Translations under genes and position numbers: made by a program
Assembly: GCA_030605415.1 (NCBI GenBank)
Contig: JAUWIJ010000003.1
Location: 4,441 to 68,440, forward strand
Length of the DNA: 64,000 nt
DNA from: an archaeon
Lineage (GTDB): Archaea > Nanobdellota > Nanobdellia > Pacearchaeales > GW2011-AR1
Direction of reading: 5' to 3'
Notes under the pieces: model-generated
Told to the model about the DNA's origin: nothing
What the model saw: only the letters and a program-made list of their open reading frames with translations
The model's database searches: none
In this document: piece after piece, positions 6,187 through 58,739 of the stretch
Layout of the letters: each line of letters begins with the position of its first letter
Numbering within the stretch: the first letter of the stretch is position 1

Positions 6187-6325
6187 CACAAATCCCAAAT
6201 CCCCGTCCCCAGTTCGGAGTTGGGAGTTTGTAGTTGATAGTTAATAGCCCCCCCGCTTCCCCGTTCCCTGCCCCCACTCCCCACCCCCAACTCCAAACTA
6301 CCAACTACGAACGCAAAAGCGTTCG
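6187..6325 (+). repeat. composite GC-rich mosaic element between rps2 and eno, overlapping the eno stop
   Basis: It contains CACAAATCCCAAATCCCCGTCCCC, GAGTTGGGAGTTTGTAGTTGATAGTT, the 28-mer AGCCCCCCCGCTTCCCCGTTCCCTGCCC (identical at 46163), CCCAACTCCAAACTACCAACTAC, and the hairpin GAACGC-AAAA-GCGTTC. Confidence 0.85.
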
Positions 6326-7576
6326 TTCAATCATCATCACTCTACGAAGTTTGATAAGCCTCTCTCGTCCAAAAATTCCAGTCTTGATAAATTGTCCTCC
6401 GAATCCGATACAATAATCTGCGAGAATATTATCCATCGTTTCTCCTGACCTATGTGAAAAAATCATAACAATATTATTCTTCTTGCAAAATTCCACAACT
6501 TTTTTCACTTCCAAAATGGACCCAATCTGATTCGGTTTAATAATCACAGCATTAATCGCTTCTCCCCGAACCGCCCGATGAACTCTTTTTAAATTTGTCG
6601 TCGTCAAATCATCCCCAACAATCAAAGTCTTACTTTTCTTTATTTCTGCAATGCCATTCGAAATTTCTTTAAATCCGGAAAAATCTTCCTCCTGCATTCC
6701 ATCTTCAACATAAAAAATTCCAAACTTTTTCACCAACCTCTCAATATAATCCGCCTGGTCAACCTTGTCCCGAATCAAATCTTTATTTTTATATCTATAA
6801 TAACTTTTATCATAAAATGTAGACGCTGCAACATCCAACCCAATCCTTAATTTATATCTTTTCGCAACAGTCTTTAAAATTTCAAGCACCTCTTCATTCG
6901 TTTTACCTGTCATCCAAGCCCCCTCATCATTTCTCTCCCTCCTCCATTCCCCAAACTTACCCCCAACCCCCAACCCCCAACCCCCAACCGGTTTTTGAAC
7001 CAAAACCTTCTTCGAGTACTCATAAGCTCTCAAATTCACAGTCACCGCTCGACCAAAAGTTTTCTCTTTCGGAATTAACAAAAACTCTTGAAAGTCAGGA
7101 CGTTTTCCATTAATAGTTTTAGAATGCAATCCTCCACCAATACAATTCCCGACGGGCATCGGCATCTTCGGTCGCAAACCATCATTCACATCATCATTAA
7201 TAAACTCCCACAATTCCTTTCCATTATCCGCGGCAGCCGCCTTCAAAAACACGCCTTCCATCGCATAATTTACATTCCCCCCAAACCTTCCAAACTTCGC
7301 CTCGAACCGTCGCATCAATTCAACAATCTGTTTCAAGTGCGCAATCCTTTTAATAATAAAATTTTTGTGCTTCAACTTCGGGCAAAAAACCCGCAACATT
7401 TTCATACTCCGTTCAATTCCCTTCGCATTATAACTCGCGACCTCACTCTTTCCTTTAGACTTTCCCGACGGTGCCGAACACTTAAATTTCCCTTCATATG
7501 TTACAATCTCAATTTGTATGCTTTTTTCTCCACGGGAATTTTTTACAAAACGGGGTAACACTTCTTTAATAAACAT
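6305..7576 (-). CDS. eno: enolase
   Basis: SHRSGETMDN matches the enolase signature (SHRSGETED). The N-terminal is RGEKSIQIEIVT, and the gene sits in the conserved archaeal rpoK-eno-rps2 neighbourhood. Confidence 0.85.
   Translation of the reverse strand: MFIKEVLPRFVKNSRGEKSIQIEIVTYEGKFKCSAPSGKSKGKSEVASYNAKGIERSMKMLRVFCPKLKHKNFIIKRIAHLKQIVELMRRFEAKFGRFGGNVNYAMEGVFLKAAAADNGKELWEFINDDVNDGLRPKMPMPVGNCIGGGLHSKTINGKRPDFQEFLLIPKEKTFGRAVTVNLRAYEYSKKVLVQKPVGGWGLGVGGKFGEWRRERNDEGAWMTGKTNEEVLEILKTVAKRYKLRIGLDVAASTFYDKSYYRYKNKDLIRDKVDQADYIERLVKKFGIFYVEDGMQEEDFSGFKEISNGIAEIKKSKTLIVGDDLTTTNLKRVHRAVRGEAINAVIIKPNQIGSILEVKKVVEFCKKNNIVMIFSHRSGETMDNILADYCIGFGGQFIKTGIFGRERLIKLRRVMMIERTLLRS
6961..6988 (+). repeat. 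(CCCCAAC)x4 perfect heptamer array inside eno
   Basis: Read directly from the sequence. It encodes VGGWGLGVGG in frame. Confidence 0.95.
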
Positions 7577-13033: not shown

Positions 13034-13064
13034 ACTACCAACTACCAACTACCCACTACCAACT
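13034..13064 (+). repeat. (ACTACCA)-type heptamer array abutting the psmA stop
   Basis: The sequence actaccaactaccaactacccactaccaacta was read directly. Confidence 0.85.
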
Positions 13065-13758
13065 ATTCCAATTCCTTTCCACTAACTTTCTTAATCTTTC
13101 CCTTACTCAAAATCCCAGCATCAAATCTATCAACATTAAAATCATCTCCCTGAATTTCCTTAAATATTTCCAAAGCCAGCTTAATTCCCTCTTTTAAACT
13201 CATTCCTTCTCGGTATTTTTCTCGCAACAATTTCTTAATAGCGTCGTCATTTTCACCAATAGCATTTGCTTTATATTTTAAGTAGTTGCCGGTAATATCT
13301 GTCGTATACAAAACCGGTTTTCCATTAAACCCCGCAAACATCATCGAAACGCCGAACGGTCTTGCCCCGCCATATTGTGTAAACTGTTGCTTAACATCAG
13401 CAATATCCCGAACAATAGATTCCGTGCTCGGAGCCGAGCCATAAGTCACCCAGTGCTGTTGCGCCAAAATTCTCGCTCTCTCAATCAAAACTCTCGCGTC
13501 AGAACTAATTCCCGCCGACACCGCAATAATATGCTCGTCAATTTCATTAATTTTATTTGCCGATTCTTCGATTATTAGAATATCCTTTTTTCGTCTGTCT
13601 GAAACAATCACGACGCTATCTTTGCAAACAATTCCAATCGAAGCAGAGCCAAGTCTAATCGTCTTCTCCGCGTATTCTACTTGCAAAATATGTCCATCAG
13701 GCGCAAACATTGTCGCCGCCCGGTCATATCCCATTTGCTGGTGCTGTATATCGTCCAT
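13063..13758 (-). CDS. psmA: proteasome subunit alpha
   Basis: YDRAATMFAPDGHILQVEYAEKTI is the canonical alpha-subunit N-terminus. Confidence 0.9.
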   Translation of the reverse strand: MDDIQHQQMGYDRAATMFAPDGHILQVEYAEKTIRLGSASIGIVCKDSVVIVSDRRKKDILIIEESANKINEIDEHIIAVSAGISSDARVLIERARILAQQHWVTYGSAPSTESIVRDIADVKQQFTQYGGARPFGVSMMFAGFNGKPVLYTTDITGNYLKYKANAIGENDDAIKKLLREKYREGMSLKEGIKLALEIFKEIQGDDFNVDRFDAGILSKGKIKKVSGKELE

Positions 13759-17360: not shown

Positions 17361-17676
17361 TGGACGAGAACTCAGAACTCGGTGGACGGGAAGTCCAGAT
17401 CTCAGAACTCCAACGAGAACTCAGAATTCAGATCTCAGAACTCCAACGAGAACTCAGATCTCAGAACTCAGATTTCAGAGGGGGACGGGGAGCTGGGGGC
17501 GGGGGGCACGCCCCCGGAGGGTAGGGCTTTTGGGAGTGGTGGTTCTAAGCTCTAAGAGTGAATGAAATGAACGGTCTGAGTTCTGAGTTCTAGGGAGTGG
17601 AACGACCTCTAAGAGCGAATGAAATGAGCGGTCTAAGTTCTAAGTTCTCAGTTCTGTTTTGAGCAAGAGACGAGCG
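17361..17676 (+). mobile_element. MITE-like foldback element, copy A (AGAACTC arm, GC-rich core, GAGTTCT arm)
   Basis: The ends tggacgagaactcag ... gagcaagagacgagcg match copy B at 44331-44563. The ~108-nt core 17501-17608 is near-identical to 44433-44541. No ORF. Confidence 0.65.
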
Positions 17677-19436: not shown

Positions 19437-20113
19437 TGGAAATTTACCAGCCCGCCGAAGATTCATATTTTTTCGCAGATTTTTTAAAAAAATACCTCAC
19501 TACCAACTACTCACTACCAACTACTCACTATTTGGATATGGGCTCTGGCTCTGGAATTCTATCTGAAACTGCATCAAAATTTTTAGACAAAAAAAACATT
19601 TTAGCCACCGATATAAATTCATCTGCAATAAAATTATTAAAACAAAAAAAGATTAATGCAATCAAAACAAATCTTTTTGAAATTTTTGGTAGAACAAGTC
19701 GTGCTTCACAAATCCCAAATCCCAAATCCCTCGTCGCTCCCCTCCCCTGCCCCACAAATCCCAAATACCAAATACCAAATCCCTCGCTTGCAAATCCCAA
19801 ATCCCGAATACCAAATCCCTCGTCTATGTCCCAAATCCCTCGTTTCGACCTAATAACTTTCAACGCACCCTATCTCCCTCTCGATTCACGCGAACCAAAA
19901 TCATCACAACTTGCAACAACTGGCGGGAAAAAAGGCGATGAAATTTCACTAGAATTTTTAAAGCAGGCAAAAAAACATCTGAACAAAAACGGCAAAATAT
20001 TTCTCCTGATTTCGAGTCTAACACCAATGGATAAAATAAAAAGGTTCAATCCGAAAATAGTTGCAAAGAAGAAAATATTTATGGAAGAGTTATTGATATT
20101 AGAGTTTAGCTAA
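19436..20113 (+). CDS. HemK/Mtq2-like SAM-dependent methyltransferase with two repeat-derived inserts
   Basis: Motif I is LDMGSGSGILS and motif IV is FNAPYLP (a variant of NPPY). Confidence 0.6.
   Translation: MEIYQPAEDSYFFADFLKKYLTTNYSLPTTHYLDMGSGSGILSETASKFLDKKNILATDINSSAIKLLKQKKINAIKTNLFEIFGRTSRASQIPNPKSLVAPLPCPTNPKYQIPNPSLANPKSRIPNPSSMSQIPRFDLITFNAPYLPLDSREPKSSQLATTGGKKGDEISLEFLKQAKKHLNKNGKIFLLISSLTPMDKIKRFNPKIVAKKKIFMEELLILEFS
19498..19530 (+). repeat. (CACTACCAACTACT)x2 array inside the methyltransferase CDS
   Basis: Read directly. It encodes LTTNYSLPTTHY. Confidence 0.85.
19707..19842 (+). repeat. CCCAAAT-type array inside the methyltransferase CDS
   Basis: CACAAATCCCAAATCCCAAATCCCTCG is followed by variants. 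It encodes QIPNPKS...QIPNPS...RIPNPS between motif I and motif IV. Confidence 0.9.
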
Positions 20114-26269: not shown

Positions 26270-26283
26270 TTAGAAACACTTAG

Positions 26284-26401
26284 CTCACCAGAGATACCTA
26301 CTGGGTGAAAACCTCGGTTTTTAAAAGTTCAACCAAAACCTTTATCTCACCAGAGATACCTACTGGGTGAAAACCTCGGTTTTTAAAAGTTCAACCAAAA
26401 C
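26284..26401 (+). repeat. perfect 56-nt direct repeat x2 separated by 6 nt
   Basis: ctcaccagagatacctactgggtgaaaacctcggtttttaaaagttcaaccaaaac occurs at 26284-26339 and again at 26346-26401. Confidence 0.95.
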
Positions 26402-26431
26402 TTTTAAAAACCAAATTCCGCCCATATATCT

Positions 26432-44330: not shown

Positions 44331-44563
44331 TGGCGAGAACTCAGAACTCGACGAGAACTCAGATCTTAGAACTCAGATCTCAGAACTCAGAGGGGGCAAC
44401 CGACGAGGACAGGGATAGGAGAAGCGGGAACGGGGGGGCACACCCCCAGGGGTAGGGCTTTTGGGAGTGGTAATTCTAAGCTCTAAGAGTGAATGAAATG
44501 AACGGTCTCAGTTCTAAGTTCTATAGAGAGTGAAACGACCTGAGTTCTGGGAGCAAAGCGACC
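44331..44563 (+). mobile_element. MITE-like foldback element, copy B
   Basis: It has the same termini and ~108-nt core as 17361-17676. Arms of AGAACTC (left) and GAGTTCT (right) form long imperfect inverted repeats. Confidence 0.65.
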
Positions 44564-46085: not shown

Positions 46086-46250
46086 TTACCCTCACCCCCG
46101 CTTCCCAGTTTGTAGTTGGTAGTCTCCCCTCGCCAGTCAGGAGTTTGGAGTCAGGAATTAGTAGCCCCCCCGCTTCCCCGTTCCCTGCCCAACTCCCAAC
46201 CCCAAACTCCCAACTCCCAACTATCAGCGAAGCTGATAAACCTCTTCGAT
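46086..46250 (+). repeat. composite GC-rich mosaic element downstream of mcm
   Basis: It contains an inverted TACCCTCAC, GTTTGTAGTTGGTAGTC, the shared 28-mer AGCCCCCCCGCTTCCCCGTTCCCTGCCC, (CCCAACT)n, and the hairpin TATCAGC-GAA-GCTGATA. Confidence 0.85.
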
Positions 46251-48364: not shown

Positions 48365-49315
48365 TCAATTAAATACAAACTCGCTTCTGCCAAAAATCAA
48401 CTCTTCGGTCGTTCTCCGATAAATTCCTACAAATTGCTTCTTACAAAAAACCGCAAACCTATCATCAACTTTAATTTCGCCAACATCACTAATTACACTA
48501 TCTCTAAACAAAGGTCTTCCGATGTGCAATCCCTTAATCGCTTTCTTTTCAATCTCAACAACTGGTAGAACTTGCTTAATCGCATCCTCGGCAGGAATCA
48601 ACATTTTCCGCAAATCACTATCATCTCCAGCCTTCCATTTCCCAACAGCAATCTCAAACTCATCCAGCCGAACAAGTCGTCCGACACTCCGACCATCTAT
48701 TCCCATCCCCTCCGACCATCCGACCAGCGAAGCGTCCGAACACCGACCATCCGCTTCGGAGAATATCCCCGCAGATATTCGACGAAGTTCGCCCATATGC
48801 GCCCCGCCAATCATCTCGCCTAAATCCGAACATAATTTTCTAATATAAGTTCCACCCTCAACTTTGCATTCAAACAAAAAATCCCTGCCGTCCCCTTTCT
48901 TCCGAACACCGAACACCGAACACCGAACACCGGCTTCGAGAAGTCTCCAAAAGAATACTTCTCGTATTCTTTCTTCTCGAAGAACTGCCGACCGATGCGG
49001 AGGAGTTTGTTTAATCTTCCCAATAAAATTTTTATCAATCAATTTCTGCAATTTAGCTATATCCTGTTTCTTATGTGTATGTAAAATTCCGACATAGCTT
49101 TTATCGTGCTTAATAAAATATCCGGCCAACTTACAAGCCCGCCCCAACGTAATCGGCAAAACCCCAGTCACCTTCGGGTCAAGCGTTCCCATATGCGATG
49201 TCTTTTTCAGCTTTAATTGTCTTCTGACAAATTCAGAAATCGAATACGACGTCGGTCCGGCTGGCTTGTCGATATTTATTAAACTGAAATTTAGGAGCCC
49301 TTTGATTGGTTTCAT
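48365..49315 (-). CDS. cbf5: tRNA/rRNA pseudouridine synthase Cbf5 (TruB + PUA) with two repeat-derived inserts
   Basis: The evidence is INIDKPAGPTSYS, HMGTLDPKVTGVLPI, GTYIRKLCSDLG and a C-terminal PUA domain. Confidence 0.9.
   Translation of the reverse strand: MKPIKGLLNFSLINIDKPAGPTSYSISEFVRRQLKLKKTSHMGTLDPKVTGVLPITLGRACKLAGYFIKHDKSYVGILHTHKKQDIAKLQKLIDKNFIGKIKQTPPHRSAVLREERIREVFFWRLLEAGVRCSVFGVRKKGDGRDFLFECKVEGGTYIRKLCSDLGEMIGGAHMGELRRISAGIFSEADGRCSDASLVGWSEGMGIDGRSVGRLVRLDEFEIAVGKWKAGDDSDLRKMLIPAEDAIKQVLPVVEIEKKAIKGLHIGRPLFRDSVISDVGEIKVDDRFAVFCKKQFVGIYRRTTEELIFGRSEFVFN
48676..48765 (+). repeat. CCGAC/CCAGCGAAGCGTCCGAAC element inside cbf5
   Basis: The sequence is gtcgtccgacactccgaccatc...tccgaccatccgaccagcgaagcgtccgaacaccgaccatccgcttcgg. 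It encodes GRCSDASLVGWSEGMGIDGRSVGR. Confidence 0.85.
48902..48932 (+). repeat. (CCGAACA)x4 perfect heptamer array inside cbf5
   Basis: Read directly. It encodes GVRCSVFGVR. Confidence 0.95.
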
Positions 49316-50059: not shown

Positions 50060-50160
50060 ACACAAATCCCCGTCCCCTTCCCCCCCCTTGCCCTCACAAA
50101 TCCCAAATCCCCAATCCCTAATCCCTATTCCCCCTCAACCACCCCTTCCTCTCCCCTTCC
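50060..50160 (+). repeat. C-rich mosaic element overlapping the 3' end of the alkylation-repair gene
   Basis: It contains CACAAATCCCCGTCCCC and CACAAATCCCAAATCCCCAATCCCTAATCCC. Confidence 0.8.
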
Positions 50161-54924: not shown

Positions 54925-57261
54925 TTACTTCTTCGCCTCTTCCTCAACTTCCTTAATCGTCGCCACATCTCCGACTCCCCTATCACTTCTCAGTTGAATA
55001 ATACGAGGAAATCTCAAAGCATAACCCGAAGAATAAGTCGGCGACTTTTGAATGTTCTGATATTGAACCGTAATAACAATCTCGGGCTTAACTTTAATTC
55101 TCCGTCCTTTAGTTTCAATCAACAACTTTTCTAACATGTCTGTCATCTCAACAAAACTCAAACCCTGCTCTGGCAATTCCTTCAGCCCCGTCGACACTTT
55201 CCCAACTCCAAGCAACTCGTCATTGCCATGCGATATTTTTATATTCTCAATCTCCTCTAAAACTTCTGGTACCTTCTTCAAGCACCTTCCAAAATGAAAC
55301 TTATCTTTATAAATTTTAAATTTTGCATTCAATCCCTTCGCATTTCTTTCTCCCGCCTCAAATGCAATAATAGGATCATTTCGAGAATGAATTACAATAA
55401 AATTATCACAGTGAGATTTAATCTTTTCAAAATCATAAAGACCAGCCTCATAAAACCCATGTGTATTTTTCTCTCGACTTTTCTTAATATCAGTAGGGTT
55501 ATTCGTCCCAATCAAAATTACTTTTTTAATTCGTCTCCCTTTAGATAACCTTTCCAGCCACCTCATAATCGCAACTCCTCCTCGAGAATGCCCAACTAAA
55601 ACACTATTTTCATTAGGATTAATCTTATCCAATTCCTCAAGCCACTCGCTTAAAACAGGATCATTAGTTTTTGGCAAATCTGGAGCAACAAATTCAAAAC
55701 CTTTCTTCTTGACTTCTTTACCAAGCCAAGGATACCATGCATCATTTGATGTCATCTTTTTTCCATGCATAAAAACAACATTATCTAAATTGTTTGCCGA
55801 AGGCAACTCTCCTTCGAACCCCGAACCCCGAACCCCGAATTCCGAATTCCGACACGCAACATCAAACGAAGTCAACCACCCCGCTCGCTTTCCAGTTCCC
55901 CATTCAGCACCGGTAATTACCAAATCGAAATCTTTATCTTCAGGTTTCAGTTTAACAGCATATCCAATCCGAGCCCCCGGTTTATATGGCGCCTCCAAAC
56001 TTTTCCCCATCAAACCTTCCTGATTATCATTCAATGCCTTCTCATAAAATTTCTCAACCACTTTCCCATCATCAGTAATAATTTGTTTCGCCAGAACAAT
56101 CTTAAATTTTTTCTCCTGCACAATTCGTTCAATCAAATGTCGTCTCTCGGCAAACGGCGTTGCAATCAAACTATTCCCATCATAATAAACAATGTCAAAA
56201 ACAACTAACTCAATCGGCAACGACTTCCTCATTTCAGCAATTCCATATTTCCGCCGAATCCTCTGACTAATCGCCTGAAAGTCCGTATACTTTTTCGTCA
56301 TCGCATACCCTTCTTGGGTCTTACCAGCAGGTGCAAACCCAACCGCTTCAGCGTCGAGAATAAAACTATTCCCCTTAACATGATTTTCAACATACTCAAC
56401 AATTTCAGGAAATTGCGTCGTCACCTCTTCCAGTCGTCGGGTAAAAATTTTAATCCTTCCATCGCTTTCCTTATTAATCATAACCCTAAATCCATCATAC
56501 TTGTATTCAAATGCCGCGGGGCGACCGACAATTTTAAACGCATCTTCAACGTCCTTCGCCTTCGGAAACAACATAACTTTTATGGGTTTCCCCGGCTCCA
56601 ATTTAATTTTCTCCAACGAATCATCACACGCTCTCTCAAAAACCTCAGCAAAATCCGTAGCCCTGTCATACGCCTTCTGAACTTCTTTAACACAAGTCTT
56701 TTTATCTTCCAAATTTTTCGGCTTAAAACAATACATAGCAATCGCATCCCTCAAAATACCAGACCCAACACCAATTTTCAAATCACCCAAAACAGTCCGC
56801 ACAATATACCTTGCCTCTTTCGGCGTCGCTGAGTGCAACAAATCAACAATAAACCCAACCTTCAAATCAACCGTTCCATTTCCCTCAATCGTCGGCAACT
56901 TCCGTAAATTATCCATAACTTTCTCAACACTTAACTTTTCAGAAAACAAAGCCGTCTGCGTTTTCCTTTTCTTTAAAATTGATTCTGCAACTTTTCCTAA
57001 ATCTCCAAGTTTTTTAAACTCATCAACAACTTCTGCATCATTAATTCCAGCCGCTCTCCCAATTGCCCGAATCACCAACTGATGCGAAATTCCCAATTCT
57101 CGATTATCATAATCCGCAAACAACCGACCCTGCAATAAATAAATCAACTCAGGTTTATCCTTAATATTCCCCAGAAAACTCGCAAGTATATCCGTCTTTT
57201 CCAAGCCCTTCGACGTCGATTCCAACGCTTCATAAATTTCACATATCTTCGAATAGTCCAT
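54925..57261 (-). CDS. lig: ATP-dependent DNA ligase carrying an inserted alpha/beta-hydrolase domain
   Basis: It has a DBD N-terminus, the adenylation motif EYKYDGFR, EGLMGK, and the OB domain and motif VI (YALRFPRIIQLRSDR). It is 778 aa, versus roughly 550-600 aa for typical archaeal ligases. Confidence 0.9.
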   Translation of the reverse strand: MDYSKICEIYEALESTSKGLEKTDILASFLGNIKDKPELIYLLQGRLFADYDNRELGISHQLVIRAIGRAAGINDAEVVDEFKKLGDLGKVAESILKKRKTQTALFSEKLSVEKVMDNLRKLPTIEGNGTVDLKVGFIVDLLHSATPKEARYIVRTVLGDLKIGVGSGILRDAIAMYCFKPKNLEDKKTCVKEVQKAYDRATDFAEVFERACDDSLEKIKLEPGKPIKVMLFPKAKDVEDAFKIVGRPAAFEYKYDGFRVMINKESDGRIKIFTRRLEEVTTQFPEIVEYVENHVKGNSFILDAEAVGFAPAGKTQEGYAMTKKYTDFQAISQRIRRKYGIAEMRKSLPIELVVFDIVYYDGNSLIATPFAERRHLIERIVQEKKFKIVLAKQIITDDGKVVEKFYEKALNDNQEGLMGKSLEAPYKPGARIGYAVKLKPEDKDFDLVITGAEWGTGKRAGWLTSFDVACRNSEFGVRGSGFEGELPSANNLDNVVFMHGKKMTSNDAWYPWLGKEVKKKGFEFVAPDLPKTNDPVLSEWLEELDKINPNENSVLVGHSRGGVAIMRWLERLSKGRRIKKVILIGTNNPTDIKKSREKNTHGFYEAGLYDFEKIKSHCDNFIVIHSRNDPIIAFEAGERNAKGLNAKFKIYKDKFHFGRCLKKVPEVLEEIENIKISHGNDELLGVGKVSTGLKELPEQGLSFVEMTDMLEKLLIETKGRRIKVKPEIVITVQYQNIQKSPTYSSGYALRFPRIIQLRSDRGVGDVATIKEVEEEAKK
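55222..55845 (-). other. ~208-aa in-frame insertion in the ligase OB domain: YdeN/RBBP9-like serine hydrolase fold
   Basis: The insertion lies between FDVACRN and DELLGVGKVSTG. It contains VVFMHG, WYPWL and the nucleophile-elbow-like VGHSRGG. Confidence 0.7.
55815..55856 (+). repeat. (CGAACCC)x3 (CGAATTC)x2 heptamer array at the N-terminal junction of the ligase insert
   Basis: Read directly. It encodes SEFGVRGSGFEG. Confidence 0.95.
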
Positions 57262-58192: not shown

Positions 58193-58516
58193 TTATCTAA
58201 TAAAATATTCAATCTTATTTCTTACTTTCTCATAAAACTTTTTTTCAAGTCGTGCCAATTTTTTAATAATAATTCTTTCATCAATTGCAAAAATCCTATG
58301 AGGCTTAACCCAACTTTTGAATGGTAATGTCCCGTCGCTAAATGAATTTTTATTAATTAAAACGCCATCCATTGGTCTATTGGAAGTAATCAGGCAACAA
58401 ATTTTATCTCCGCCTTTCAAGTTTTTATTCGAAATAATTATCGCGGGTCTTTTCTTAGCGCCAGTTAAATCCGAGTAAGGAAATGGAATTAAAATAATAT
58501 CTCTTTGTTTAAACAT
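58193..58516 (-). CDS. PemK/MazF-family toxin
   Basis: The evidence is RDIILIPFPYSDLTGAKKRPAIIIS and CCLITSN. Confidence 0.8.
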   Translation of the reverse strand: MFKQRDIILIPFPYSDLTGAKKRPAIIISNKNLKGGDKICCLITSNRPMDGVLINKNSFSDGTLPFKSWVKPHRIFAIDERIIIKKLARLEKKFYEKVRNKIEYFIR

Positions 58517-58739
58517 TATTCCACCTTTCGTCGGTCTCGTTGTCCCAATCTTTTTTCAAAACTTCTTCCGACGCCAACATAGTCATAATGCCCTCGCTGT
58601 TTTTATCATTCTCAATTTGATTAAGTTCTGCAATTCTTTGCCGAATAACCTTTCTAATAAACTCGCTCCATTTAATTTCAGAATATTTTTTCATTAAATT
58701 ATAGGTTTCAGTCTCAATCGATAACGTGACATTTGTCAT
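58509..58739 (-). CDS. antitoxin (RHH-like) for the MazF-type toxin
   Basis: 76 aa. It overlaps the toxin start by 8 nt. The N-terminal VTLSIETETYNLMKK has a strand-helix pattern. Confidence 0.55.
   Translation of the reverse strand: MTNVTLSIETETYNLMKKYSEIKWSEFIRKVIRQRIAELNQIENDKNSEGIMTMLASEEVLKKDWDNETDERWNNV

What the first reader, a model, noticed from the sequence alone, without database searches (positions are those of the whole stretch)
55222..55856. ATP-dependent DNA ligase with a complete alpha/beta-hydrolase domain inserted in its OB domain, bordered by a heptamer array
The ligase is 778 aa. Between FDVACRN and DELLGVGKVSTG, which are adjacent in ordinary ligases, lies a ~208-aa in-frame segment. 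Its core (VVFMHG, WYPWL, LVGHSRGG, IVIHSRNDP) looks like a YdeN/RBBP9-type serine hydrolase. The N-terminal junction is exactly the (CGAACCC)x3(CGAATTC)x2 array, encoding SEFGVRGSGFEG. There are no intein signatures. The insertion could be a repeat-mediated gene fusion or domain insertion in the only ligase seen here. Alternatively it could be a functional ligase-hydrolase chimera.
Basis: partly seen in the sequence, partly recalled or inferred. Interest (0 to 1): 0.78.

Follow-up and report, generated by a model that had tools for sequence, protein, structure and literature searches.

The report
DNA ligase carrying a nested hydrolase
The only DNA ligase gene in this stretch of a tiny (DPANN-type) archaeon's genome has a complete, apparently working esterase-type enzyme inserted in-frame into a surface hairpin. 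This arrangement arose several times independently, and I found no paper describing it.

Summary
ORF 54925-57261 (-) encodes a 778-aa ATP-dependent DNA ligase. Its OB domain is interrupted between FDVACR and DELLGVGKVSTG by 209 residues (55222-55848). These are a 23-aa linker containing the (CGAACCC)3(CGAATTC)2 array, a full YdeN/RBBP9-type serine hydrolase, and an 8-aa linker.

The hydrolase keeps the Ser559/Asp629/His656 triad and every family-invariant residue, models confidently, and shows dN/dS of 0.10-0.18. The ligase motifs are intact.

The closest ligase (94% aa, 93% nt) lacks exactly these 693 nt. Only two other ligases carry such an insert. The three sit in separate branches of the ligase tree, and they carry two different hydrolase paralogs that interleave with free-standing genes. 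That implies at least two, probably three, independent captures into one hairpin.

The array is not an insertion scar. Relatives without the hydrolase have 7-8-nt arrays at the same codon, and heptamer arrays are enriched across the window (11 versus 0.05 expected), including in Cbf5 and enolase.

The same hydrolase family is nested in UvrB (at least 11 clusters, with 10-nt arrays at two junctions examined), PheRS-beta, LeuRS and Fmt.

Verdict: a genuine two-enzyme chimera and a new variant of domain insertion. The function of the coupling is unknown.

The parts
54925..57261 (-). Whole gene: 778-aa ATP-dependent DNA ligase with nested serine hydrolase (stop codon 54925-54927)
   Evidence: ORF list; Pfam and NCBIfam hits; TIGR00574 scores 329.5 bits against a cut-off of 217.8.
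56737..57255 (-). Ligase N-terminal DNA-binding domain (residues 3-175)
   Evidence: PF04675, 147 bits.
55945..56574 (-). Adenylation (nucleotidyltransferase) domain, residues 230-439. Motif I KYDG with Lys254 lies at 56491-56502.
   Evidence: PF01068, 153 bits; motif positions.
55849..55944 (-). First part of the OB domain (residues 440-471), ending in FDVACR
   Evidence: Alignments A1/A3: invariant D442...C470. Aligns to P. furiosus ligase 2cfm '...FGSFILGAYD'.
55780..55848 (-). N-side linker, residues 472-494 (NSEFGVRGSGFEGELPSANNLDN); low-confidence/disordered in the model
   Evidence: pLDDT 58-65 for the first 20 residues of the insert model; absent from ortholog L003.
55815..55852 (-). 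Heptamer tandem array: + strand (CGAACCC)3(CGAATTC)2, coding strand (CGGAATT)2(CGGGGTT)3
   Evidence: TRF, 100% matches; sequence; codon reading.
55246..55779 (-). YdeN/RBBP9-type serine hydrolase core, residues 495-672. Catalytic codons: Ser559 at 55585-55587, Asp629 at 55375-55377, His656 at 55294-55296.
   Evidence: PF06821; profile against PDB; AF2 model pLDDT 89.4; Foldseek top hit 1uxo, TM 0.86; family-invariant columns all kept.
55222..55245 (-). C-side linker, residues 673-680 (NIKISHGN)
   Evidence: Absent from L003; low pLDDT at the end of the insert model.
54928..55221 (-). Second part of the OB domain (residues 681-778), with motif VI LRFPR at 55003-55017
   Evidence: PF04679, profile positions 15-94; invariant G687-E695 and R750-R753; motif position.

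Best explanation
This is a genuine, evolutionarily recent, in-frame nesting of a whole free-standing gene inside the replicative/repair ATP-dependent DNA ligase of a small-genome DPANN archaeon. The nested gene is a roughly 180-aa YdeN/RBBP9-type serine hydrolase. Homologs are labelled Woese-/Pace-/Nanoarchaeota.

How it works:
- The gene is translated as one 778-aa polypeptide.
- The ligase keeps its three domains and catalytic motifs.
- The turn of an OB-domain beta-hairpin (DPETGE in the P. furiosus enzyme) is opened by a 23-aa flexible Gly/Ser/Arg-rich linker and an 8-aa linker.
- The hydrolase hangs from these linkers as an autonomously folding globule with its own Ser559-Asp629-His656 triad.
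- I infer that both activities work, and that the hydrolase is a tolerated, selectively maintained passenger (co-expressed and tethered) rather than a part of the ligation chemistry.

The hairpin is a permissive, hypervariable site. In this clade it is repeatedly lengthened by perfect 7-8-nt tandem arrays. It has captured a hydrolase at least twice, probably three times, from two different paralogs. The heptamer array in the window is the local form of that microsatellite linker, not a target-site duplication.

Shown: the architecture, the fold, the conservation, the sporadic phylogenetic distribution, and the independence of array and hydrolase.

Inferred: that both enzymes are active, that they act independently, and the direction of events (gain rather than loss).
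For: Architecture.

Exact indel: 693 nt relative to ortholog L003, which is 93% nt identical.

Hydrolase identity and integrity:
- YdeN E=1e-27 and RBBP9 E=1e-24.
- Model pLDDT 89.4, pTM 0.85.
- Foldseek 1uxo TM 0.86, RBBP9 0.83-0.87.
- All 21 family-invariant columns are retained, including H-G, G-H-S-R-G and D. The triad His lies in a column conserved in at least 90% of sequences.
- dN/dS 0.10-0.18 against the P0001 insert and the free-standing L006 gene.

Ligase integrity:
- Motifs I-VI are present.
- OB invariants are kept on both sides of the insert.
- dN/dS 0.08 (N part) and 0.22 (C part) against L003.
- The locus is syntenic (thioredoxin - ligase - TBP - NFACT) in all relatives.
- It is the only ligase in the window.

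Not an artefact:
- An identical 6,886-nt stretch occurs in a Logan assembly.
- The protein is held by NCBI, Logan and ENA.
- A 99%-identical variant of P0001 has the same architecture.

Independent captures:
- The three insert-bearing ligases fall in three separate places of the ligase tree, each next to an insert-less neighbour.
- In the hydrolase tree the P0001 insert pairs with the free-standing L006 gene (bootstrap 90) ahead of the window insert (74).
- The P0070 insert is a different paralog: 31% identical to the window insert, 49% to the free-standing L006B, and 51-65% to UvrB-nested copies.

Array independent of hydrolase:
- (CGGGGGTT)4, (GTCGGTT)4 and (TCGGTGG)5 sit at the same codon in P0112, P0004 and P0043, which have no hydrolase.
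- 16 of 120 ligases have 12-23-aa loop expansions.
- Period-7 runs: 11 observed against 0.05 expected in the window.
- Window-specific array-encoded inserts occur in Cbf5.

Insertability: the domain is about 180 aa, begins with a strand and ends with a helix. This fits the size, termini and autonomy rules for inserted domains in PMC13114784.
Against: - No activity data exist for either module.
- The full-length AF2 model is poor (pLDDT 63, OB region below 50). Whether the OB barrel closes around the insert, and where the hydrolase sits relative to DNA or PCNA, is therefore not shown.
- The 97 codons downstream of the insert are more diverged from L003 than the rest of the gene (87% against 96% aa, dS 0.40 against 0.20, dN/dS 0.22 against 0.08). 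This could mean relaxed constraint on the split OB half rather than recombination.
- Only 64 kb of the genome was seen, so a second ligase or a free-standing hydrolase elsewhere cannot be excluded.
- Gain versus repeated precise loss is inferred from parsimony on NJ trees, not proven. Motifs such as (D/E)L(G/S)N in insert-less loops could be scars of lost hydrolases.
Confidence: 0.78

Rival explanations
1. Functional coupling. The hydrolase is a working accessory of DNA repair, tethered to ligase (and to UvrB in relatives). It might clean up substrates that block repair, for example peptide or ester adducts on DNA ends or lesions, or it might regulate the host enzyme.
For: The same hydrolase family is nested in UvrB in at least 11 protein clusters of related archaea, and UvrB and ligase act in the same excision-repair pathway. 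Two paralogs were recruited to the same two hosts. The nearest solved relative, RBBP9, binds a free amino acid (7oex) and, from my own knowledge of PMC8866121 (listed, not read), acts as an aminopeptidase.
Against: The family is also nested in or fused to unrelated hosts: PheRS-beta, LeuRS, ValRS (N-terminal on a partial sequence), Fmt, NUDIX, Ham1, peptidase S51 and glyoxalase. It is most often free-standing. The closest ligases do without it. The long disordered linkers suggest no fixed geometry relative to the ligase active site.
Confidence: 0.2
2. The tandem array caused the insertion. The G-run array is a fragile or recombinogenic site, and break repair or template switching there captured the hydrolase gene.
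For: All three ligase inserts have an array at the N-side junction: 7-mer, 8-mer and 7-mer. UvrB-nested hydrolases have perfect 10-nt arrays at an N- or C-side junction. In several 10-18-kb relatives' loci the ligase loop holds the only array, or one of very few. Several arrays have at least 4 G-runs.
Against: Arrays occur at the same codon without any hydrolase and in other genes without inserted domains. The P0241 UvrB junction has no array. Units differ between lineages, so the arrays turn over faster than the inserts and may post-date them. No microhomology or duplication of hydrolase-gene ends was seen.
Confidence: 0.25
3. The insert is removed before the ligase functions, either by protein splicing (intein-like) or by RNA splicing (archaeal bulge-helix-bulge intron). 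The mature ligase would then be ordinary.
For: The sporadic distribution in an essential, conserved gene resembles that of inteins. UvrB relatives do carry true inteins (P0417 and P0445 with PF14890/PF14528).
Against: There is no Cys/Ser/Thr at the insert start, and no His-Asn followed by a nucleophile at its end (the flanks are R|N...N|D). No intein or Hint Pfam hit was found. The insert is a conserved enzyme with an intact triad. The two junction RNAs pair no better than shuffled controls (-16.3 against a mean of -21.3 kcal/mol).
Confidence: 0.04
4. This is a decaying or neofunctionalised ligase copy. The OB domain is disrupted and ligation is lost or taken over by another ligase elsewhere in the genome.
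For: The C-terminal OB half shows higher dN/dS (0.22) and lower identity to the nearest ortholog. The OB region modelled poorly.
Against: The reading frame is intact, and motif VI and all OB invariants are kept. dN/dS is still well below 1. The gene sits in the conserved syntenic ligase locus. The architecture is maintained in three diverged lineages and in 99%-identical variants. No second ligase lies in the window. The C-terminal region is less conserved in all pairwise comparisons.
Confidence: 0.04
5. Assembly or binning chimera that joins a hydrolase gene into the ligase.
For: Tandem repeats at a junction are a classic place for misassembly.
Against: The frame is preserved at both junctions. 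An identical sequence occurs in a separate Logan assembly. The same architecture is seen in other samples with different arrays and different hydrolase paralogs. The C-side junction has no repeat.
Confidence: 0.01

Closest known systems
Archaeal/eukaryotic three-domain ATP-dependent DNA ligases (Lig1 type; P. furiosus 2cfm, Thermococcus 4eq5/3rr5, human LIG1 1x9n)
   Same: DBD, adenylation domain and OB domain in the same order. The insert-less ortholog P0002 matches 2cfm at E=1.7e-116. Motifs KYDG...LRFPR are present.
   Different: The OB hairpin turn (YDPETGEF in 2cfm) carries a 209-aa insert containing a second enzyme. None of the solved or named ligases retrieved has this.
YdeN / RBBP9 serine hydrolases (Pfam PF06821; PDB 1uxo, 2qs9, 7oex)
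   Same: Same minimal alpha/beta-hydrolase fold (TM 0.83-0.87), G-x-S-x-G nucleophile elbow and Ser-Asp-His triad. The closest relatives are free-standing proteins of 176-190 aa in Patescibacteria and Pacearchaeota, up to 70% identical.
   Different: Here it is not a separate protein but is nested inside another enzyme's domain. The physiological substrate of the prokaryotic family is unknown.
Inteins in replication/repair proteins
   Same: An in-frame insertion of a self-contained module into a conserved site of an essential gene, with sporadic presence or absence among close relatives.
   Different: There are no splicing residues, no Hint or homing-endonuclease domain, and the insert is a metabolic-type hydrolase. 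It presumably stays in the mature protein.
Multidomain ligases built by end-to-end fusion (bacterial LigD: ligase + polymerase + phosphoesterase)
   Same: An ATP-dependent ligase core combined with an additional hydrolytic enzyme in one polypeptide. NCBIfam LigD models hit only the core.
   Different: LigD modules are appended at the termini and process DNA ends. Here the extra enzyme is nested within the OB domain and belongs to an unrelated superfamily.
Tandem repeats that create new disordered protein segments in Borg elements (PMC9879509, abstract seen)
   Same: Perfect, rapidly evolving, lineage-specific tandem DNA repeats inside ORFs add low-complexity or disordered segments to proteins.
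   Different: The units here are 7, 8 or 10 nt, not multiples of three, so the peptide repeat arises only every three units. They occur in core housekeeping genes of a cellular genome and at the linkers of nested domains.
General domain-insertion architectures (PMC13114784)
   Same: A1-B-A2 topology. The insert is compact (about 180 aa), folds autonomously and is flanked by linkers, matching the stated requirements.
   Different: That survey's text does not mention DNA ligase (0 occurrences). Here the same small enzyme family has been inserted recurrently into several unrelated essential hosts.

Membership tests
ATP-dependent DNA ligase (TIGR00574 / Pfam PF04675+PF01068+PF04679) | Scores above curated thresholds for the three domain models | tested here: met
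   PF04675 147 bits (cut-off 24.6); PF01068 153 (26.2); PF04679 30.8 (27.5, partial profile 15-94); TIGR00574 329.5 (217.8).
ATP-dependent DNA ligase (TIGR00574 / Pfam PF04675+PF01068+PF04679) | Catalytic motifs: motif I KxDG lysine, motifs III-V, and motif VI in the OB domain | tested here: met
   KYDG 254-257, DAEAV 303-307, EGLMGK 415-420, KLKP 437-440, LRFPR 749-753. All lie in invariant columns of 43 ligases.
ATP-dependent DNA ligase (TIGR00574 / Pfam PF04675+PF01068+PF04679) | Contiguous, correctly folded OB domain | tested here: inconclusive
   The domain is split by 209 aa. The full-length AF2 model has pLDDT below 50 over residues 405-493 and 676-754. The fold is inferred only from conserved residues.
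ATP-dependent DNA ligase (TIGR00574 / Pfam PF04675+PF01068+PF04679) | Nick-sealing / self-adenylylation activity | not testable with these tools
   Requires biochemistry.
Ser_hydrolase PF06821 (YdeN/RBBP9) | Pfam score above the gathering threshold | tested here: met
   53 bits against 22, residues 496-657, profile positions 2-154 of 172.
Ser_hydrolase PF06821 (YdeN/RBBP9) | Alpha/beta-hydrolase fold matching solved family members | tested here: met
   Model pLDDT 89.4; Foldseek 1uxo E=6e-15, TM 0.86; RBBP9 TM 0.83-0.87.
Ser_hydrolase PF06821 (YdeN/RBBP9) | Ser-Asp-His triad with G-x-S-x-G | tested here: met
   G557-H-S559-R-G561, D629 and H656. Ser and Asp lie in invariant columns, and His in a column conserved in at least 90%, of 50 family members. 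The triad is conserved in P0001 and P0070.
Ser_hydrolase PF06821 (YdeN/RBBP9) | Hydrolytic activity | not testable with these tools
   Requires an enzyme assay or activity-based probe.
Intein | N-terminal Cys/Ser, C-terminal His-Asn, and a Cys/Ser/Thr at +1; Hint domain | tested here: not met
   The insert starts with N472 and ends ...HGN680, followed by D681. P0001 ends ...DDG|E. There is no Hint or intein Pfam hit.
Archaeal bulge-helix-bulge intron | Pairing of the two exon-intron junctions into a helix-bulge-helix | tested here: not met
   Junction duplex -16.3 kcal/mol against a shuffled mean of -21.3. The insert is in frame and encodes a conserved enzyme.
Transposon-type insertion with target-site duplication | Direct repeat of the target at both ends; element-encoded mobility gene | tested here: not met
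   The array lies only on the N side in the window, and arrays occur at the same codon without an insert. The insert encodes only the hydrolase.

The most novel reading that the evidence does not exclude
In ultra-small archaea (and apparently CPR bacteria), YdeN/RBBP9-type hydrolase genes behave as exchangeable in-frame cassettes. They repeatedly colonise, swap between and are lost from permissive loops of essential information-processing enzymes: the DNA ligase OB hairpin, the UvrB inter-domain linker, PheRS-beta, LeuRS and Fmt. They are flanked by fast-evolving non-triplet tandem arrays that act as linkers and possibly as recombination sites. This would be an intein-like 'nested gene' lifestyle without splicing. 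Alternatively it would be a previously unrecognised accessory activity (for example aminoacyl/peptidyl-ester or adduct hydrolysis) recruited to repair and translation enzymes.
Probability: 0.3. Interest if true: 0.85.

Novelty: new variant of a known kind. Interest (0 to 1): 0.62.

Why it matters
- It is a natural experiment in protein engineering. A 180-residue enzyme has been threaded into a beta-hairpin of the domain that closes a replicative ligase around DNA, and it is maintained under purifying selection.
- It recurs. The same hairpin was hit independently by different paralogs. The same hydrolase family is nested in UvrB, aminoacyl-tRNA synthetases and Fmt. Either this enzyme has an unrecognised role next to nucleic-acid enzymes, or there is a mechanism of in-frame gene nesting peculiar to reduced genomes.
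- Both ideas are directly testable with the sequences identified here.
- It exposes a lineage-specific mutational process: perfect 7-10-nt tandem arrays that lengthen loops of core proteins.
- It warns annotators that these over-long ligase and UvrB genes are real rather than misassemblies.

Tried and rejected
1. Neighbouring stand-alone Ser_hydrolase as donor. L001 and L002 have such a gene between L15e and PspC. It is only 22-31% identical to the three ligase inserts, so it is a different subfamily. Rejected.
2. Mixed ligase + hydrolase alignment for full-length structure prediction. MAFFT misplaced the hydrolases (A2). The ligase-only alignment A3 gave a poor model, so the geometry question stays open.
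3. More insert-bearing ligases. A degenerate junction pattern (ligase EWGxGKRAGWLTSFD ... WYPW) matches the window, L011 and L001. It found nothing in JGI metagenomes, in GTDB species genomes or in viral contigs. The search for related loci returned 26 ligase loci, all without the insert.
4. Intein and BHB-intron readings. Rejected.
5. Recombination import of the insert. Identity to L003 dips to 81-89% for about 370 nt downstream of the insert and returns to 92-98% in TBP, and dS doubles. However, the C-terminal part is less conserved in all comparisons. Kept only as a hint.
6. Literature searches for a ligase-hydrolase nesting, for nested domains in CPR/DPANN enzymes, and for heptamer repeats in these archaea found nothing specific.
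7. The insert-only word-indexed search failed to return P0001 and P0070, so it cannot be used to count nested copies.
Full report
OBSERVATION

The minus-strand ORF 54925-57261 encodes 778 aa. Pfam places the following domains:
- DNA_ligase_A_N at residues 3-175.
- DNA_ligase_A_M at 230-439.
- Ser_hydrolase (PF06821) at 496-657, with 53 bits against a gathering score of 22.
- DNA_ligase_A_C at 680-761, matched only from profile position 15.

The C-terminal OB domain is therefore split. NCBIfam's ATP-dependent ligase model TIGR00574 scores 329.5 bits (cut-off 217.8) in two stretches.

The array is exactly as described. It reads (CGAACCC)3(CGAATTC)2 at 55815-55849 on the + strand. TRF calls it as two 100%-matching period-7 arrays. 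On the coding strand it is (CGGAATT)2(CGGGGTT)3 and encodes SEFGVRGSGFE.

Alignment of the gene with its nearest insert-less ortholog (L003, 93% nt identity) leaves one 693-nt gap. From the motif positions I place the insert at residues 472-680, window 55222-55848.

WHAT THE INSERT IS

A profile of 50 relatives hits B. subtilis YdeN (1uxo, E=1e-27) and human RBBP9 (E=1e-24) among PDB sequences. An AlphaFold2 model of the insert with that alignment has pLDDT 89.4 and pTM 0.85, with only the two linkers at low confidence. Foldseek returns 1uxo (TM 0.86) and RBBP9 entries (TM 0.83-0.87) first.

The nucleophile elbow G-H-S559-R-G and Asp629 lie in columns invariant across the family, and His656 lies in a column conserved in at least 90% of sequences. 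The insert keeps all 21 invariant columns.

Nei-Gojobori dN/dS is 0.14 against the P0001 insert, 0.18 against a free-standing gene (L006), and 0.10 between those two. The domain is under purifying selection.

Its closest relatives are stand-alone proteins of 176-190 aa, up to 70% identical. Sources label them as Patescibacteria/Parcubacteria and Pacearchaeota, and some are fused to NUDIX. The insert covers the whole ORF of such a gene from about codon 2 to the last helix.

THE LIGASE IS INTACT

- Motif I (KYDG, Lys254), DAEAV, EGLMGK, KLKP and motif VI (LRFPR) are present.
- OB-domain invariants on both sides of the insert are conserved among 43 ligases.
- The insertion point corresponds to the hairpin turn YDPETGEF of the P. 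furiosus ligase 2cfm.
- dN/dS against L003 is 0.08 upstream and 0.22 downstream of the insert.
- The gene lies in the conserved neighbourhood thioredoxin - small ORF - ligase - TBP - NFACT seen in all relatives.
- It is the only ligase detectable in the window.

NOT AN ARTEFACT

- A Logan assembly contig (L011) is identical over 6,886 nt.
- The protein is held by NCBI, Logan and ENA.
- P0001 has a 99%-identical variant with the same architecture on another contig.
- P0001 and P0070 come from other samples and have different arrays and different hydrolase sequences.

DISTRIBUTION AND HISTORY

Among 4,469 ligase homologs, the best 120 are nearly all 561-590 aa. Only P0001 (783 aa) and P0070 (777 aa) share the insert, at the same site. 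The nearest ligase, P0002 (94% aa), lacks it.

In an NJ tree of the ligase parts, the three insert-bearing proteins sit in three separate places. Each is next to an insert-less neighbour: window with P0002, P0001 with P0101, and P0070 with P0102.

In the hydrolase tree, the P0001 insert pairs with the genuinely free-standing L006 gene. That gene has a stop codon upstream, its own ATG, and a second hydrolase gene following it. The pairing has 90% bootstrap support. P0124 joins at 83% and the window insert at 74%.

The P0070 insert is a different paralog, which I call type B. It is 31% identical to the window insert, 49% to the second L006 gene, and 51-65% to copies nested in UvrB. There were therefore at least two, probably three, independent captures into one hairpin, or lateral spread plus cassette replacement.

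A junction-spanning degenerate DNA pattern that matches the window, L011 and L001 finds nothing in the JGI metagenome collection, GTDB species genomes or viral contigs. 26 ligase loci from Woese-/Pace-/Nanoarchaeota MAGs all lack the insert. The architecture is rare.

Identity to L003 drops to 81-89% in the roughly 370 nt downstream of the insert and recovers in TBP, with dS 0.40 against 0.20. This is compatible with the insert arriving, or being lost in the sister lineage, by homologous recombination of a ligase allele. However, the C-terminal part is generally less conserved, so this is only a hint.

THE ARRAY

It is not a footprint of the insertion.
- Relatives without the hydrolase carry perfect arrays at the same codon, directly after TGT CGN AAY: (CGGGGGTT)4 in P0112, (GTCGGTT)4 in P0004 and (TCGGTGG)5 in P0043.
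- The other two insert-bearing genes have (CGGGGTGT)4 and (GGGGATT)3.
- 16 of the other 120 ligases have 12-23-aa expansions of this loop, in at least six clades.
- Perfect period-7 runs of at least 18 nt occur 11 times in the window against 0.05 in shuffles, with no excess for periods 5, 8 or 10 (TRF list).
- Such arrays lie inside the enolase gene (6959-6989, PVGGWGLGVGG) and the Cbf5 gene (48902-48932, AGVRCSVFGVR).
- In Cbf5 this 11-aa segment and a second 24-aa segment (8-mer array at 48711-48753) are absent from the orthologs of the closest relatives.

Non-triplet tandem arrays are thus this lineage's way of lengthening surface loops.

They also recur at the junctions of nested hydrolases in another host. 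Two UvrB genes have perfect 10-nt arrays: (ACACGGACGA)2.8 on the C side in L041 and (ACACGGATGA)2.6 on the N side in L042. A third UvrB junction has none.

It remains unresolved whether the arrays predispose a loop to capture a gene, are selected afterwards as linkers, or partly mark lost inserts. Motifs such as (D/E)LGN occur before the hydrolase in ligase and UvrB and also in some insert-less ligase loops.

WIDER PATTERN

An exhaustive phmmer search with ligase residues 430-730, followed by Pfam scans, shows the same hydrolase family in several contexts.

Nested inside:
- UvrB (P0241).
- PheRS-beta, within the B5 domain (P0245).
- Met-tRNA formyltransferase (P0249).
- LeuRS (P0307, P0248), with Ham1 or NUDIX also nested.

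Fused to:
- ValRS: the hydrolase is N-terminal on P0382, which looks like a partial sequence.
- LeuRS: N-terminal on P0312, where NUDIX is nested.
- NUDIX, Ham1, peptidase S51 and glyoxalase, end to end.

A search with the UvrB chimera finds at least 11 clusters with a nested hydrolase. These are interleaved with insert-less UvrBs of equal or higher host identity. They carry several hydrolase paralogs, 34-45% identical to each other, while the UvrB parts are about 80% identical. JGI's automatic names already read 'UvrB/predicted alpha/beta hydrolase family esterase'. I found no paper describing this or the ligase case.

Free-standing type A genes overlap by 4 nt the stop of a class-I aminoacyl-tRNA synthetase gene in L007. 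The same overlap occurs in L006, where the upstream partial ORF gave no Pfam hit.

HOW IT MOST LIKELY WORKS

One polypeptide is made. The ligase folds as usual. The OB hairpin is extended by a disordered 23-aa Gly/Ser/Arg-rich linker and an 8-aa linker, and the hydrolase folds on its own between them.

The model begins with a beta-strand and ends with a helix. In a parallel alpha/beta sheet this places both termini on the edge opposite the catalytic loops. This is an inference from topology; I could not measure the distance. It would explain why the domain is insertable, in line with the size, termini and autonomy rules of PMC13114784.

I commit to the reading that both enzymes are active and act independently. 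The hydrolase is a maintained passenger that gains co-expression with, and tethering to, an essential protein. The architecture, fold, conservation and phylogenetic pattern are shown. Activity, independence and the direction of events are inferred.

RIVALS

- A real functional link to DNA repair or aminoacyl-ester chemistry is attractive given the host list, but the hosts are heterogeneous and close relatives lack the insert.
- Array-mediated capture is possible but not demonstrated.
- Excision (intein or BHB intron) fails its defining tests.
- A decaying ligase is contradicted by conservation.
- An assembly chimera is contradicted by independent assemblies.

LIMITS

- The full-length structure prediction was poor (pLDDT 63), so preservation of the OB barrel is inferred only from sequence.
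- Trees are NJ with modest bootstrap support.
- Only 64 kb of the genome was examined.
- Taxon labels come from the sources' names for homologs.

VERDICT

The finding is real and its interpretation is essentially right. It is a new variant of a known kind (domain insertion, multifunctional ligase), made more interesting by its recurrence and by the associated non-triplet arrays.

Noticed in passing
window, whole 64 kb (e.g. 6959-6989, 13034-13065, 17396-17479, 19755-19819, 44336-44391, 46188-46222, 48902-48932, 50099-50132): About 30 period-7 tandem arrays with many different units. Perfect period-7 runs of at least 18 nt occur 11 times against 0.05 in shuffles, with no excess for periods 5, 8 or 10. 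This looks like a lineage-specific heptamer microsatellite process.
   Followed up: partly
window 48365-49315 (-), arrays at 48902-48932 and 48711-48753: The Cbf5/TruB pseudouridine synthase has two window-specific in-frame inserts (11 aa AGVRCSVFGVR and about 24 aa). They are encoded by a 7-mer and an 8-mer array and are absent from orthologs in L003, L013 and L012.
   Followed up: yes
window 6305-7576 (-), array 6959-6989: An enolase-like ORF contains a perfect (GGGGGTT)x4.4 array encoding PVGGWGLGVGG. It was not compared with orthologs.
   Followed up: no
P0241, P0394-P0404, P0413, P0417; loci L009, L041, L042: UvrB of related archaea carries nested Ser_hydrolase domains of several paralog types at the RP|...|GQ(I/V) linker, interleaved with insert-less UvrBs. 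Perfect 10-nt arrays (ACACGGA[CT]GA) lie at the C-side junction in L041 (3936-3963) and the N-side junction in L042 (3306-3331). P0417 has Pfam hits for both an intein domain and the hydrolase.
   Followed up: partly
P0245, P0249, P0307, P0248, P0312, P0382, P0242 (one search hits): The same hydrolase family is nested inside PheRS-beta (B5 domain), Fmt and LeuRS, and sits at the N-terminus of ValRS (a partial sequence). In LeuRS, Ham1/ITPase or NUDIX domains are nested as well. End-to-end fusions to NUDIX, Ham1, peptidase S51 and glyoxalase also occur.
   Followed up: partly
L006 217-762 and 759-1088; L007 489-1034: Free-standing type A hydrolase genes start with a 4-nt overlap (ATGA) on the stop of the upstream gene. 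In L007 that gene is a class-I aminoacyl-tRNA synthetase (Anticodon_1 hit); the L006 upstream fragment gave no Pfam hit. In L006 the hydrolase gene is followed, again with a 4-nt overlap, by a type B paralog.
   Followed up: partly
L001 676-1314; L002 356-979: A third, distant stand-alone Ser_hydrolase (about 210 aa, 22-31% identical to the inserts) sits between the L15e and PspC genes near the ligase in the two other insert-bearing genomes. It is missing from that position in the window and in L005.
   Followed up: partly
window 55226-54925 compared with L003: The roughly 370 nt downstream of the insert are 81-89% identical to the closest relative, against 91-99% upstream and 92-98% in the next gene (TBP). 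dS is 0.40 against 0.20. This is a possible recombination tract around the insert.
   Followed up: partly
window 26280-26406: A 62-nt unit repeated twice in tandem, 96% identical (TRF score 240). Its nature was not examined.
   Followed up: no
window 58193-58739 (-): A PemK-type toxin and RHH antitoxin pair lies between the thioredoxin gene and the PspC region (Pfam labels from the identical locus L011). It is absent from that position in relatives L005, L012 and L013.
   Followed up: no
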